Part shown: in pieces, positions 1,496 through 6,767 of the stretch | Layout: each line of letters starts with the position of its first letter | How positions within the stretch are numbered: position 1 is the stretch's first letter | Assembly (NCBI RefSeq): GCF_006345805.1 | Contig: NW_021829264.1 | Location: forward strand, 1-6,767 | From: Octopus sinensis | Lineage: Eukaryota | Reading direction: 5' to 3' | DNA length: 6,767 nt | Position numbers: made by a program

Positions 1496-4400
1496 ATAAT
1501 AATATTAGGGAGTAAAACTCCAAACTTACAGGGAATATTCAATTTAGTATTAAATCAAATTTCTCAATGTAAATATATATATATATAAATAAATAAGAGA
1601 AAAACCATTATTATGCAATTCAAACAATGATAGACATAAACCAAATCATAAGAAAAAATAAAATATACTATAAAATATATAACTAGATCACAAAAAGTAT
1701 AAAAATGAATAAATATATATAGTAAGTAAAAAGACTACGTACGTTTCATGGCTAGAATTTAAATTCTAATTAAATTAAACTTTAATTTAATCAAAAGACA
1801 ATTCAATTTGAAAGTATAGTAACTCCTCAGGTCAACAATAATTGCAATAATAGTTAAATAAATAATTAAATTGAATTAAACAATATTTATAAAAGAAGCA
1901 TAGTTTCCTAGTCCCTTGTTCTGAAGGTTCTCAGAATCCAGCCAGCCATATGCCTGCACACTGCAACCATATTGGCGATATGGATATGAAACTAGGTATT
2001 GTTGCTTATATCAATCCAAGATCATGCTCCGTATGTGATTTTGGCTCATACAATTCACTTAGACACGCCACATTTTATTGCTGTTTTCGTGGAGAGGGCT
2101 CTGTTGGTTGCTACAGCCTGGTCTCTTTCTTTTAAGAAGTCATGCAACCACTCTCTGAGGTTTCCAGTTATGCCAGGTCTTATTAGTTTGTGACTTATCG
2201 TCACATGATCAACCTTACCAAAGGCCACGTTAGAGCGATTTTTTAACTGTATCACCACCTAGTCACTGTACTGCAAAATCTGTTTAAGGCAGCTTCTTCC
2301 AGAGTGAGAGCCATTGCCGGGTGTCAGGAAACAAGTAGATACCTTCAAGGAACGCAATTAGTTTCTTCCTGACAATGTGCTCCACGATTTTGCTGACATG
2401 GCTGGTTAGAGAGACAGCTTTATACTTTTTAGCATTTGCTGTTACCTTCTTTATAAATAGGGCATATTATTCCTTACTTTAACCTTTTGGAAAGTCTTTC
2501 TGATGCAATGAAGATCTGGAAGAGAATCCGAAGTAGTCTTGCTAGAACCCCTTTGTATTTCTTTAGGAAGATTGCTGGGAATCCATCAGAGCCTGTGAAT
2601 GAGTTTGAGCTCACTTCAACAATGGCTGATATCACATCCGTTTCCTCTATTTTGATGCTATCAATAATAGTCATTTCTTTGTGTAGAGCTGTGGAGCCAA
2701 AGAATCATTCAGGCGTAACTACTTGCAAGTGTCCCAAGGGAGTGGTAAAACACTCTTGTATTGCACATTGAGTATTTCACTGATCCTCTGGGGGTCTGTA
2801 GTTGGCGAGCCATTTTCTTCGACTAATGGCCTTATTTTATACTATACTGGTGCACACCTTTTTGCATATCCATAGAAGAATTTAGGGTTTGTCTTAATAT
2901 TTTTGACAGCCCTGGCTTCCTTTTCTGCCCTATCCTTTTCAAGAGAGTATTTGAGTTCACTTTCGATCTCGAGCATTGTTTGTTTGAGACGGGATCGTTT
3001 GTTATCCTTTAGCGACCCCTTTAGACGATTTGAGATTTTTGCTCGTTGTCTCCTAAGTAAATAATCTACATAATTCCTCGTCTCTTTAATATAGAACTGT
3101 AGTGCCCCAGCATGGTCACAGCTCGTGAGCTGAAACAAGATAAAATTTTAAAAAATAAAAAATATATATATATATACATATATATATGCATTCTTATATA
3201 GATATATATATATATATATATATATATTTCAACAATTGAGGGTAGACTATATGAGAGAGGTTTCAACAATTGAGGGTAGACTATATGAGAGAGGTTTTCT
3301 TTAAGTATTAGAAATAGTTTTTAAAAAGTTTTCTTTGGCTCTTTTCTAATGAGTTCAGTATGCGGCAAGTAATTTATTTTACTAAGCCCTTTATATAATG
3401 TAATAATTTGAATTCGCCTTAATGTCCTTTTGCATACTGAATACTTGGTGAAATTGATTAATTAATTAATTTTACCCTCAATTGTTGAAATTATAATTCA
3501 TCTCTCTCTATATAGCCGGGATTTTACCGAAAAAAGCATAGTGTTTACTGATTTTAACCCACGCTGGTGGAAAGGGGAGAGCAGAAATTCTCGCTTGCAT
3601 ATTTGGGTTTGTTGGCACTGTAGTTACGAGCAGATCTTCTGACAGCGAGAGGAAGCCGAAAGGGTATGCTCCATTTCAGTGTTTTCAAATCCAAACCAGG
3701 GAGTTCTGAGCTATGATAGAAATGTCGTGTTGACTATCTTGAAACGTACGTTCTCAAATAACCTTTGCACTTGATTTTTAATGTCTCTACCCCCATATTT
3801 GCGTGAGTTGAATTGAGCAAAAACTATATGAGAGAGGTTTTCTTTAATATTAGAAATAGTTTTAAAAAAGTTTTCTTTGGCTGCTATTTCTAATGAGTTC
3901 AGTATGCGGCAAAGTAATTATTTTACTAAGCCCTTTATATAATGTAATAATTTGAATTCGCCTTAAATGTCCCTTTGCATACTGAATACTTGGTGAAATT
4001 GTTAAGTAATTAATTTTACCCTCATTGTTGAAATATAAATCATCTCTCTATATATGCCGCGGATTTTACCGAAAAAAGCATAGTGTTTACTGATTTTAAC
4101 CCACGCTGGTGGAAAGGGGAGAGCAGAAATTCTTCGCTTGCATATTTGGGTTTGTGTGGCACTGTTAGTTACGAGCAGATCTTCTGAAGCGAGAGGAAGC
4201 CGAAGGGTATGCTCCCACTTTCAGTGTTTTCAAATCCAAACCAGGGAGTTCTGAGCTGATGATAGAATGTCGTGACTAATCTTGAAACGTACGTTCTCAA
4301 ATAACCTTTGCACTTGATTTTTAATGTCTCTACCCCCATATTTGCGTGAGTTGAATTGAAGCAAACACTATATGAGAGAGGTTTTCTTTAAGTATTAGAA

Positions 4401-6767
4401 TAGTTTTAAAAAAGTTTTCTTTGGCTGCTATTTCTAATGAGTCAGTATGCGGCAAAGTAATTTTTTCTAAGCCCTTTATATAATGTAATAATTATTATAT
4501 ATATATATATATATATTATATATACATATATATAATGCATTCTTATATGTACATATATATATATATATATATATTGCGCGTAACCCGTAAGGACACTGAC
4601 AGTTCAGATTATAAAATATTGAATCTGATTTCGACATTAAATAAAATGAAAGTTTATTTTATGATGATTCAGTTAAATATTTCAATTTGTACGTGTCATG
4701 AAAGGTGTGGTTTACAACCTCATGGTTTAGGTTTTAGAAATAGAACTTTCAGGGTAAATTTGAATTCTAGTAACAGCATTTATTTGTGGTATATGTGCAC
4801 ACGTCTACAAAAATGCAAAAGGAATTTTTAAATAACGTGTATATAAAATTAAAGGGAAATATTTTCCCGGAGTATTTTCCCATTATGCACTGTTTTGGCT
4901 ATTTATGAAGGTACCCCCAATAACCGCCTATCTCGAGAATCCGTGGTACGATTCATGCGAAACTTGTTTTTTTTCCGTTTGTATTTACATTTCAGGTGTA
5001 CCTTACTTTCAGAGCATTTTCCCATTATGCGCCGGTCTGACTATTAAATAACAGACAAGTATGCACGTATGTACACAAACAAAACCGGCGAAACTACGGA
5101 CAAATTGCTACTTTTTAAACAAATTTTCAACATATACCTCTAAGCGGATGTGGTTTCAGAATATATAGGGATTTATGGGAAATAGTTTTTTTTCCAGCGT
5201 GGAGGGAGAGGAGGTTCGAAAAATTCAAACAATGAGACTTCTCCATAACTTTCAGAAAAATGGATATCATTTAATGGAATTTTATACAAATACCTTTCAA
5301 AGGAGATAGATTACGATTCTAATGAAATTCGCAGGGAAAATATTTTCCGAGGGGATGGGGAGAGGATTTTCGAAAAACGGAGTTTCGGTCCAGAAAGACC
5401 AAATATGTTGGAACTACTCCGTTTTGACGGGCATTTCTCGACCTGTTTTTTAAAAACCACGGTCTTGGAATTGATGTGGGCGGGGAACATCTTTTTATGA
5501 AAACAAAATGTTTAAAAATATTTTATACACACCCCAACCTTTTTCAATCCCATTCCAACCGATTTTGGCCAATTTGTTGCACTTCAAAACGATGGGAGGA
5601 ACTTTTTGGTAAAATAGAATTGAAAAAATTCAGAGGAAAGTGAGTGAATTAAGAGATATTTGACAGTTGCTTCTAGCACATCTCAAAACAGCCCTGCTCT
5701 TTTCTTTCTCACTCTCAAGTGAATTTATGCTTTTCTATATCCTTCTTCCCCATAAATACATTTATATGCTACAAAAAATTTGAAACAATATGATTTTTTA
5801 AAAACCCTCTCCCTAACCAGATTGTCTCTATAAATTAAAATTCTGGAGAACCTGAGAAGGTCATTGCTGGCATTTATCCACACTGATTATAAAACAGTGT
5901 TCTGCAAACGATAATTCATTTTAATAGCATACTTTTCAGTTAGAAAATATTCTTCTTACACACACAGCTTCGCTTAATTGAGGTGGGGACAAGAAACAAA
6001 ATTACAAATTTTTAGTTGCTTATATTCCACCAACGAACCACGCCTACTTTTCAGTTAGAAAATGTTTTTTTTCTTACATGCACACGGCTTCGTTGATTGA
6101 GGTGGGGGTAAAAATTAACATTACAATGTTTTGTTGTTCCTATATCCCATCAACAGACGACATGTATGTTACTTCGGCAACATCATTCCATAAAATTTTT
6201 AATGGTAAAAAATTATTGAGAAAACATAAATGTAAGAGTGAAAACGGATGTGGGATTGGGATGTGCTGGAAATAACAGCCAAATCTCCATTGAATCGTGC
6301 AGTTTTCCCTCTGAAAATATTTACATTTTGTTTACCGAAAAGGCTCCTCCCATGGTTTCTAAATTTTAAAAAAATGACCAAAATCTGTCCGGAGTGTAGA
6401 TGGTGAGGAATTTCCAAAATATTTCAACACTTTTTTTTCCAAAAAAAATGCCCCTCATAATTTCGAAGGCTGTGGTGAAATAAAAATGGGGAAAATCCCC
6501 GTGGAAACAGGGTCGTTCCCACTTATTTGGTCTTACTGATCCTAAACTCAGTTCTTTCGTAACTACTGTCCTCACCACATTGGAAAAAGCTTCCCTTCAA
6601 ATTTATAATCATAATCTATTCCGTTTAAACGGTATTTGTATACAATTTCATTAAAATAAATCAATTTTCCTGAAAGTTACGAGGGAAAAATTCGGATCAT
6701 GTGAATTTTGGAAAACTTCTCTCCCGACTACATTGGAAAAATTCTTTTCTATAAATCCCTATATACT

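What the first reader, a model, noticed from the sequence alone, without database searches (positions are those of the whole stretch)
3281..4493. Tandem 543-bp hammerhead-ribozyme repeat: candidate retrozyme / self-cleaving circular-RNA retroelement
Seen: 2.2 near-identical non-coding units, each full unit with an HHR motif; predicted cleavage sites (after 3752 and after 4295) are 543 nt apart. The array begins and ends at points unrelated to the cleavage site. Known: type I HHRs occur in Penelope-like pseudo-LTRs and in metazoan non-LTR retrozymes, whose tandem transcripts self-cleave to monomers that circularise. Inferred: a + strand transcript would release a ~543-nt monomer. A permuted, non-integer copy number is what reverse transcription around a circular template would leave, probably using a Penelope RT in trans. 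The class is known, but this unit is longer than the few-hundred-nt animal retrozymes I recall, so it could be an undescribed (probably cephalopod) family.
Basis: partly seen in the sequence, partly recalled or inferred. Interest (0 to 1): 0.88.

Follow-up and report, generated by a model that had tools for sequence, protein, structure and literature searches.

The report
Tandem repeat with weak hammerhead motif
A 543-base non-coding unit is repeated about 2.3 times head to tail inside a TA microsatellite and carries a hammerhead-ribozyme-like motif that is complete in only one unit, so it is probably an ordinary member of the known animal retrozyme class.

Summary
The tandem array is real. 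Its period is 543-544 bp and it holds 2.23 copies (2.33 counting a 34-nt doubled left end). Units 1 and 2 differ by 6 substitutions and 23 small indels.

The hammerhead claim is only half right. Both full units keep GAAACGUACGUU^C, with sites after 3752 and 4295. Only unit 2 has the CUGAUGA box; unit 1 reads CUAUGA, without the essential G.

Against the ribozyme: Rfam gave no hammerhead match in three searches, and the hammerhead fold is not the minimum-energy fold.

For the ribozyme:
- A descriptor written after the fact hits 37 of 6000 shuffled windows, and 0 of 6000 with a palindromic helix III.
- The U.U at the base of helix II and the 2-bp helix III with a tetraloop have a published precedent in axolotl retrozymes.
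- The array sits in (TA)n between 64/68-nt direct repeats, so it looks like one inserted multimer.

Best reading (0.55): a Penelope-related non-LTR retrozyme insertion, decayed or mis-assembled in unit 1. The 543-nt size lies within published ranges. Copy number, conservation and cleavage could not be tested.

The parts
3162..3225 (.). Left copy of the TA-rich flanking direct repeat, containing ATGCATTCTTATAT. It looks like a target-site duplication.
   Evidence: Alignment A1: 61 of 68 columns are identical to 4507-4574. The 14-mer occurs exactly twice in the window, at 3186 and 4535.
3227..3297 (+). Exact 34-nt repeat (2.1 copies) forming the left end of the array, a possible 'tail'. Its first 18 nt are the reverse complement of 3473-3490 inside the unit. 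Its last 15 nt are in register with the unit start.
   Evidence: TRF gives 100% matches. The repeat finder families D7 and I3. BLAST aligns unit positions 265-281 with 3278-3261.
3281..3823 (+). Unit 1 (543 nt)
3707..3756 (+). Hammerhead-like motif of unit 1. It is incomplete: the first core box reads CUAUGA (no G5) at 3711-3716. GAAAC is at 3741-3745, and the proposed site follows 3752.
   Evidence: Sequence read, alignment, and no descriptor match.
3753..4295 (+). Predicted 543-nt monomer lying between the two proposed cleavage sites.
   Evidence: The circular fold is -138.4 kcal/mol against -114.5 +/- 6.5 for 100 shuffles (z = -3.67), with 61% of bases paired.
3824..4367 (+). Unit 2 (544 nt)
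4252..4299 (+). Complete type I hammerhead-like motif of unit 2. Helix I 5' strand is 4252-4255, CUGAUGA is 4256-4262, and the helix II segment is 4263-4283. GAAA is 4284-4287. Helix III plus its loop, ACGUACGU, is 4287-4294. U17 is 4295, with the site after it. Helix I 3' strand is 4296-4299.
   Evidence: Descriptor hit with helix I 4 bp, helix II 3 bp and helix III 2 bp. The pairs are listed. The palindrome is flagged.
4368..4493 (+). Unit 3, partial (126 nt). It ends inside a TA-rich stretch of the unit.
4507..4574 (.). Right copy of the TA-rich flanking direct repeat.

Best explanation
The locus is one insertion of a more-than-unit-length copy of a small non-coding retroelement. The element belongs to the animal non-LTR retrozyme kind, which is related to the pseudo-LTRs of Penelope-like elements.

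Proposed working, all of it inferred: a + strand transcript spanning two or more units folds type I hammerheads. Helix III is too weak in cis (2 bp plus a GUAC loop), so two motifs pair through the 8-nt palindrome ACGUACGU to form a double hammerhead. [quoted passage not shown] A host tRNA ligase closes it into a circle. A reverse transcriptase supplied in trans, most likely Penelope-type, copies the circle more than once around at a nick in (TA)n. This leaves 2.3 permuted units between duplicated target sequence.

Shown here: the array, its seamless unit junctions, the flanking duplication in (TA)n, the motif in unit 2, and extra predicted folding of the monomer.

Not shown: cleavage, circles, reverse transcription, or any other genomic copy.

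In this copy the core of unit 1 lacks G5. That is either decay or one of the many 1-nt indel differences that look like assembly errors.
For: 1. Seamless head-to-tail units with 6 substitutions in 531 aligned base pairs. The copy number is non-integer, 2.23-2.33. A single in-place duplication would give 2.0 copies.
2. No TA block lies between the units, while 64/68-nt TA-rich direct repeats (61 of 68 columns identical) flank the whole array. This argues against unequal exchange between the TA blocks and for insertion of a ready-made multimer.
3. (TA)n is a reported preferred target of some Penelope-like elements. A 30-40-bp tail at one end, partial tandems and inverted pieces are reported features of their insertions (passages of PMC8557442; PMC3846280). 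Here a 34-nt doubled piece with an 18-nt inverted internal fragment forms the left end.
4. Unit 2 has CUGAUGA, GAAA and GUU^C. Helix I is 4 bp, with a possible 4-bp distal extension. Helix III is 2 bp with a palindromic tetraloop.
5. The post-hoc descriptor hits 37 of 6000 shuffled windows, 0 of 6000 with the palindrome, and 19 of 20000 shuffled monomers.
6. Short palindromic helix III is described as typical of metazoan type I and Penelope hammerheads that act as dimers (PMC4209133 passages). A U.U at the base of helix II together with a 2-bp helix III and tetraloop is described for axolotl HHR_Amex2, which cleaves weakly alone and better as a dimer (PMC7229834 Results).
7. The palindrome pairs with itself at -9.8 kcal/mol, against +2.4 for the cis hairpin.
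8. GC is 0.35, there is no coding capacity, and the monomer fold has z = -3.67. All three match the published description of retrozymes.
Against: 1. Rfam 15 gave no hammerhead match in three searches, although matches down to about 14-16 bits were being listed (score scale seen).
2. Only 1 of 2 full units has the CUGAUGA box.
3. The 10.1-11.1 position is U.U, whereas G-C is called highly conserved.
4. The helix II segment of unit 2 does not fold on its own (0.0 kcal/mol), and that of unit 1 reaches only -1.9.
5. The drawn hammerhead costs +1.2 kcal/mol and the best constrained version reaches -3.1, against -10.7 for a competing hairpin. That hairpin pairs the helix II segment with the GAAAC...GUU side.
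6. The local stretches fold no better than shuffles: z = +0.80 and +0.50.
7. Even the best of 16 mixes of the two copies' indel states reaches only -7.0, against -10.7 for its unconstrained fold.
8. The hammerhead is not formed in the minimum-energy circle, whereas most metazoan retrozyme circles are said to leave it free.
9. A 64-68-nt duplication is much longer than the 8-10-bp duplications reported for rotifer Penelope elements.
10. No Penelope RT or GIY-YIG ORF was found in the window: 34 of the 57 stop-free frames of 50 aa or more were scanned, with no Pfam family above its cut-off.
11. The descriptor was tuned to the candidate after the fact.
12. There are only two copies, so no covariation test is possible.
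Confidence: 0.55

Rival explanations
1. An ordinary tandem or mobile non-coding repeat whose hammerhead-like motif is a chance resemblance. On this reading no ribozyme is involved. The multimer arose at the DNA level, for example by rolling-circle copying of an extrachromosomal DNA circle or by replication slippage, and was then inserted or expanded in a fragile TA tract.
For: There were 0 Rfam hammerhead matches in three searches. The core is incomplete in 1 of 2 units. The hammerhead fold is thermodynamically disfavoured, and the local folds are no better than shuffles. The core-only pattern occurs in 57 of 200 shuffles. The - strand of the unit also folds better than shuffles (z = -2.91), as plain inverted repeats in DNA would give.
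Against: The full descriptor is rare by chance: 37 of 6000 windows, 19 of 20000 monomers, and 0 of 6000 with a palindromic helix III. The particular oddities, a U.U at the base of helix II and a 2-bp helix III with a tetraloop (palindromic loops being described for metazoan type I hammerheads), are described for real animal hammerheads. The (TA)n target and the 34-nt end piece fit Penelope-type insertion.
Confidence: 0.3
2. An assembly artefact. The true locus has one unit, or a different number, and the tandem arrangement or the differences between units come from error-rich long reads.
For: The differences between units are dominated by 1-nt indels, 23 gap events against 6 substitutions. That is the error pattern of unpolished long reads rather than of ordinary mutation. 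TA microsatellites on both sides are hard to assemble.
Against: Three successive units carry different indel patterns and seamless junctions. Stretches of 81, 39, 22 and 22 nt are identical between units (D5 and D11-D13). This is what one read through a real array would give. Indel errors would explain the differences between units, not the array itself. It cannot be tested without reads.
Confidence: 0.08
3. The pseudo-LTR region of an autonomous Penelope-like element in partial tandem, rather than a free-standing non-autonomous retrozyme.
For: Penelope-like elements carry type I hammerheads in their pseudo-LTRs and insert as partial tandems, often in microsatellites.
Against: No ORF lies between the units, which follow each other directly. 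No RT or GIY-YIG match was found in 34 of 57 frames scanned. The only RT-like remnants, at 2055-3147, are on the opposite strand and separated from the array by the TA tract. By motifs recalled from memory they look LINE-like rather than Penelope-like.
Confidence: 0.05

Closest known systems
Metazoan non-LTR retrozymes (Cervera and de la Pena 2020, PMC7229834; Li et al. 2026 preprint 10.64898/2026.07.22.740005)
   Same: Head-to-tail non-coding repeats of a few hundred bp with GC below 50%. No LTR, primer-binding site or polypurine tract was seen. The target duplication is longer than 4 bp. A type I hammerhead-like motif is present, and the predicted monomer is self-paired. The unit length of 543 lies inside the published 51-972 bp range of consensus lengths.
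   Different: Only one of the two full units has a complete core. Rfam gives no match. The hammerhead is not free in the predicted circle. Expression, circularity and copy number are unknown.
Axolotl HHR_Amex2 retrozyme hammerhead (PMC7229834, Results)
   Same: As described in the text read: a 2-bp helix III capped by a tetraloop, a U.U mismatch at the base of helix II, weak activity alone, and better activity in dimeric constructs.
   Different: Sequence similarity was not compared, because no axolotl sequence was available to the tools. Here helix II is long (21-24 nt) and irregular. Loop-loop contacts could not be assessed.
Minimal and variant hammerheads in pseudo-LTRs of Penelope-like elements (Cervera and de la Pena 2014, PMC4209133)
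   Same: Short helix I (4-5 bp), a helix II larger than usual, a small palindromic helix III, action as dimers, and tandem arrangement.
   Different: Those motifs keep G10.1-C11.1 and lie next to an RT/GIY-YIG ORF. Here the position is U.U and no such ORF is in the window.
Newt and salamander satellite 2 hammerhead repeats
   Same: A tandem repeat of about 330 bp whose hammerhead has a very weak helix III and cleaves as a dimer (described).
   Different: Those arrays have very many copies. Here there are 2.3 copies of a 543-bp unit at a single locus.

Membership tests
Type I hammerhead ribozyme | Core box C3-U4-G5-A6-N7-G8-A9 | tested here: inconclusive
   Present at 4256-4262 in unit 2. Unit 1 reads CUAUGA with no G5. 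So 1 of 2 full units meets it.
Type I hammerhead ribozyme | Core G12-A13-A14 followed by A15.1, with U16.1-H17 at the cleavage site | tested here: met
   GAAACGUACGUU^C is exact in both units, at 3741-3752 and 4284-4295. H17 is U.
Type I hammerhead ribozyme | Helix I formed by the flanking strands (open end) | tested here: met
   UGAG/CUCA gives 4 bp, with a possible distal AGGG/CCUU extension. The duplex energy is -7.6 kcal/mol.
Type I hammerhead ribozyme | Helix II closed by a 10.1-11.1 pair (G-C in nearly all) | tested here: not met
   The position is U.U, followed by A-U, G-C and A-U. The segment alone folds at 0.0 kcal/mol in unit 2 and -1.9 in unit 1. A U.U precedent is described for axolotl HHR_Amex2.
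Type I hammerhead ribozyme | Helix III; in metazoan type I motifs it is 1-2 bp with a small palindromic loop | tested here: met
   AC/GU with loop GUAC. The whole 8 nt is a palindrome. The feature is as described.
Type I hammerhead ribozyme | Match to the curated covariance models (Rfam hammerhead families) | tested here: not met
   0 hammerhead matches at E<=1 (whole window), at E<=10 (781 nt) and at E<=10 (101 nt).
Type I hammerhead ribozyme | Site-specific self-cleavage | not testable with these tools
   This needs in vitro transcription of monomer and dimer constructs.
Metazoan non-LTR retrozyme | Tandem repeat in which at least two consecutive units carry a complete hammerhead (rule of Li et al. 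2026, Methods) | tested here: not met
   The tandem repeat is met, but only 1 of 2 full units has a complete motif as assembled. A 1-nt assembly error cannot be excluded.
Metazoan non-LTR retrozyme | Non-coding, low GC, and no LTR, primer-binding site or polypurine tract | tested here: met
   Frames starting within the array are at most 72 aa with no Pfam family above cut-off. GC is 0.348. No terminal repeats other than the unit itself were found. Primer-binding site and polypurine tract were judged by eye only.
Metazoan non-LTR retrozyme | Target-site duplication longer than 4 bp, when present | tested here: inconclusive
   Direct repeats of 64/68 nt flank the array, with 61 of 68 columns identical. 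Without an empty site it is not shown that they arose at insertion.
Metazoan non-LTR retrozyme | Stable, highly self-paired predicted circular RNA | tested here: inconclusive
   z = -3.67 with 61% paired on the + strand and z = -2.91 on the - strand. An AT-rich control stretch also gave -2.85, while four other controls gave -0.32 to -0.99.
Metazoan non-LTR retrozyme | Many genomic copies, and expression as linear and circular RNA of unit length | not testable with these tools
Penelope-like element pseudo-LTR | Flanks an ORF with an RT and a GIY-YIG endonuclease | tested here: not met
   No ORF lies between the units. No RT or GIY-YIG Pfam match was found in 34 of 57 frames of 50 aa or more. 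This covers the window only; the source genome could not be searched.

The most novel reading that the evidence does not exclude
The unit founds an undescribed retrozyme family whose hammerhead is atypical enough to escape the Rfam models: U.U at 10.1/11.1 and a long, irregular helix II. On this reading the locus is a young insertion, about 1% substitutions between units, that still shows the integration footprint. That footprint is a permuted 2.3-mer in (TA)n, a 64-68-nt target duplication and a 34-nt end piece with an inverted internal fragment. It would be direct genomic evidence for rolling-circle reverse transcription of a circular RNA by a Penelope-type machinery.
Probability: 0.2. Interest if true: 0.55.

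Novelty: new member of a known kind. Interest (0 to 1): 0.3.

Why it matters
If the motif is a working ribozyme, the locus adds a family to the animal retrozymes in a lineage for which I found no published description. The searches listed no paper on cephalopod retrozymes, and the host of this window was not established.

Its clean flanks would also help to show how such circles are reintegrated. That step is still only hypothesised in the papers I read.

If the motif is chance or decayed, this is an ordinary short tandem repeat in a microsatellite. Either way the class, the mechanism and the size range are already described, so the gain is modest.

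Tried and rejected
- Rfam at three scales for any ribozyme family: only chance microRNA and snoRNA rows, and no hammerhead, HDV-like, twister or other self-cleaver.
- TRF: it cannot see periods above 500.
- Thermodynamic support for the hammerhead fold in cis: not found. A two-copy cofold did not form the trans helix III either. 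The double hammerhead is not a nested structure, so only its separate helices were evaluated.
- A second hammerhead elsewhere in the unit, such as CUGACAG near 3639: rejected by eye, because the core order is wrong and it is not conserved in unit 2.
- The - strand: 0 descriptor hits.
- Unequal crossing-over between the two TA blocks as the origin of the array: rejected, because the units join without TA blocks.
- Helitron or terminal-inverted-repeat transposon: no terminal inverted repeats apart from TA-rich matches. By eye there are no Helitron-type ends; those end motifs are recalled, not tested.
- Pfam on 34 of 57 stop-free frames: nothing above cut-off.
- PDB sequence search with the RT-like fragment 2055-2258(-): only one chance row at E = 1.8.
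- The two Atlas look-ups gave RVT_1 leads only, carried by 25% and 17-18% of cluster members. They cannot tell LINE from Penelope.
- ARAGORN: 0 genes.
- Left unchecked because closed or absent: the search for homologous proteins, the search of protein representatives, metagenome contigs, viral contigs, any eukaryotic genome or repeat library (Repbase/Dfam), and raw reads.
- Not used: the genome-contig scan and the phage, plasmid and E. coli collections, because they hold no animal DNA.
- Not seen: supplementary files. Supplementary Figures S1, S4, S6 and S9 of PMC7229834 and the supplementary tables of the 2026 preprint may list invertebrate retrozymes and descriptors that bear on membership.
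- Papers and what I saw of each: PMC7229834, outline, Results parts 1-2 of 3, and Discussion. 10.64898/2026.07.22.740005, abstract, Methods, and Results part 1 of 2. PMC4209133, PMC8557442, PMC3846280, PMC8969392 and PMC13282606, passages only. All other papers, search listings only.

Full report
WHAT IS THERE. The window holds no N. Between two TA-rich tracts lies a head-to-tail array. The repeat finder gives twelve direct-repeat families with spacings of 542-545 nt across 3273-4466. Self-BLAST aligns 3268-3952 with 3811-4493 at 94.0% over 699 columns. Unit 1 (3281-3823) and unit 2 (3824-4367) show 525 matches, 6 mismatches and 23 gap events in 556 columns. The partial unit 3 (4368-4493) differs from unit 2 by 6 gap events and no substitution. 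TRF missed the array only because its longest period is 500.

The differences between units are mostly 1-nt indels. That is the error pattern of long reads rather than ordinary divergence. On substitutions alone the units are about 1% apart.

THE ENDS.
- Left end. The array does not simply stop. An exact 34-nt piece is present 2.1 times at 3227-3297. Its last 15 nt are in register with the unit start. Its first 18 nt are the reverse complement of 3473-3490 inside the unit (I3).
- Right end. The array stops at 4493, inside a TA-rich stretch of the unit.
- Flanks. Outside both ends lie direct repeats of a TA-rich block, 3162-3225 and 4507-4574, with 61 of 68 columns identical. Each contains the 14-mer ATGCATTCTTATAT, which occurs only at these two places in the window.
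- No TA block lies between units, so exchange between the TA blocks did not build the array.
- A single in-place duplication would give exactly two copies.
The simplest reading is that a ready-made 2.3-mer was inserted into (TA)n with duplication of the target. This is inference, because no empty site could be examined.

THE HAMMERHEAD. In unit 2 the sequence can be drawn as a type I hammerhead:
- helix I, UGAG/CUCA, at 4252-4255 and 4296-4299, with a possible distal AGGG/CCUU extension;
- CUGAUGA at 4256-4262;
- a 21-nt helix II segment;
- GAAA at 4284-4287;
- helix III, AC/GU with loop GUAC, at 4287-4294;
- U17 at 4295.

The other half is not shared. Unit 1 reads CUAUGA at 3711-3716 and lacks G5. 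Both the simple pattern and the full descriptor match once only. 'Each full unit with an HHR motif' is therefore wrong as assembled.

HOW GOOD IS THE MOTIF. Against it:
- Rfam 15 lists no hammerhead at E<=1 in the window, at E<=10 in 781 nt, or at E<=10 in 101 nt. Rows of about 14-16 bits were being shown at that threshold, so the motif scores below that.
- The 10.1-11.1 position is U.U.
- The helix II segment does not fold alone in unit 2 (0.0 kcal/mol) and reaches only -1.9 in unit 1.
- The drawn fold costs +1.2 kcal/mol and the best constrained version reaches -3.1. A hairpin that pairs the helix II segment with the GAAAC...GUU side reaches -10.7.
- The local stretches fold no better than shuffles, with z = +0.80 and +0.50.
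- The unit differences may be assembly errors, so I scored all 16 mixes of the four indel sites inside a script without printing them. The 8 mixes with the G pass the descriptor. Their hammerhead-constrained energies are -2.2 to -7.0, against -10.2 to -11.3 unconstrained.

For it:
- A descriptor just loose enough to accept the candidate hits 8 of 1000 and 37 of 6000 dinucleotide-shuffled windows on both strands. It hits 19 of 20000 shuffled circular monomers, and 0 of 6000 windows if helix III plus loop must be a palindrome. The descriptor is post hoc, so these are upper-quality guides and not probabilities.
- The odd features are the ones described for real animal motifs. Metazoan type I hammerheads usually have a 1-2-bp helix III capped by a small palindromic loop and work as dimers. 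Penelope variants have a short helix I and a large helix II (PMC4209133 passages).
- Axolotl HHR_Amex2 has a 2-bp helix III with a tetraloop and a U.U at the base of helix II. It cleaves 22% in an hour alone and much better in dimers (PMC7229834 Results).
- The 8-nt palindrome pairs with itself at -9.8 kcal/mol, against +2.4 for the cis hairpin.

THE UNIT AS AN RNA. The 543-nt monomer cut at the proposed sites folds as a circle at -138.4 kcal/mol, against -114.5 +/- 6.5 for 100 shuffles (z = -3.67, 61% paired). The - strand gives z = -2.91. Of five control stretches, four gave -0.32 to -0.99 and one AT-rich stretch gave -2.85. This fits a self-paired circle but is not specific. The hammerhead is not formed in that minimum-energy circle.

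The array has no frame longer than 72 aa starting within it, and six frames gave nothing in Pfam above cut-off. GC is 0.348.

SURROUNDINGS. On the - strand, 2055-3147 holds fragments of a reverse transcriptase in several frames.
- Pfam found nothing and the PDB sequences gave nothing meaningful.
- Two separate fragments have nearest Atlas clusters that carry RVT_1 on 25% and 17-18% of members, at scores 0.94 and 0.93. These are leads only.
- By motifs I recall, not tested, the fragments look LINE-like rather than Penelope-like.
- They lie on the opposite strand, beyond the TA tract.
- No RT or GIY-YIG match was found in any of the 34 frames scanned, out of 57 frames of 50 aa or more.

COMPARISON WITH WHAT IS KNOWN. 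Animal non-LTR retrozymes are described as low-GC tandem repeats with type I hammerheads. They have no LTR, primer-binding site or polypurine tract, and their target duplications are longer than 4 bp. They are expressed as self-paired circles, and Penelope-like elements are proposed to mobilise them through tandem cDNA made on the circle.
- A 2026 preprint reports consensus lengths of 51-972 bp and shows that Xenopus retrozymes are sister to Penelope pseudo-LTRs. It calls a locus active only if two consecutive units carry complete motifs.
- Penelope-like elements of some clades prefer (TA)n, insert as partial tandems, and often carry a 30-40-bp tail and inverted pieces.
- This locus works like that class on anatomy.
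- It fails two membership features as assembled: two complete motifs, and a closed 10.1-11.1 pair together with a covariance-model match.
- Its 64-68-nt duplication is far longer than the 8-10 bp seen for rotifer Penelope elements.
- The size argument for novelty fails.

VERDICT. I put 0.55 on a retrozyme-type insertion whose unit 1 core is decayed or mis-assembled. I put 0.30 on a non-ribozyme repeat with a chance motif, 0.08 on an assembly artefact, and 0.05 on a pseudo-LTR of an autonomous element.

It is at most a new member of a known kind. The Octopus vulgaris repeat paper, of which I read passages, bears on this only if that guess is right. No searched paper described cephalopod retrozymes, and supplements were closed. 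The deciding data are genomic copies, raw reads, a cleavage assay and detection of circles, all of which are outside these tools.

Noticed in passing
window 1733-1840, - strand: A third near-copy of the GAAACGUACGU box lies at 1736-1747 on the - strand with 1 mismatch. CUGAGGA lies 76 nt upstream at 1830-1824, and there is a 3-bp helix I by eye. The 76-nt spacer folds as a long AT hairpin (z = -2.68), but its ends do not close a helix II. There is no Rfam match and no wider similarity to the 543-nt unit. It may be a decayed second hammerhead on the opposite strand, or chance.
   Followed up: partly
window 2055-3147, - strand: Reverse-transcriptase-like pseudogene fragments are spread over at least three frames. 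Atlas gives RVT_1 leads for two fragments, and Pfam and PDB sequence searches are negative. The coding trace is lost near 1900 at an AT-rich block. The type, LINE or Penelope, is unresolved.
   Followed up: partly
window 5162-5686 and 6256-6765: A large inverted repeat has arms of about 525 bp at 69% identity, about 570 bp apart and running to the end of the window. The 12 frames scanned from this region had no Pfam match. It could be two old copies of an unknown repeat in opposite orientation.
   Followed up: no
window 5927-6034 and 6042-6154: An adjacent direct repeat of about 110 bp at 78% identity lies between the arms of the inverted repeat.
   Followed up: no
window 505-925: This stretch looks by eye like a tRNA-derived SINE head, with a box-B-like GGTTCAGTCCC. 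It is followed by an inverted repeat at 849-920, which produced a chance microRNA row in Rfam. ARAGORN finds no tRNA.
   Followed up: partly
window 3281-4493 (and by extension the whole window): Differences between repeat units are 23 small indels against 6 substitutions. This suggests an indel-rich assembly. Frameshifts in the neighbouring RT remnants and the missing G in unit 1 may therefore be technical.
   Followed up: no
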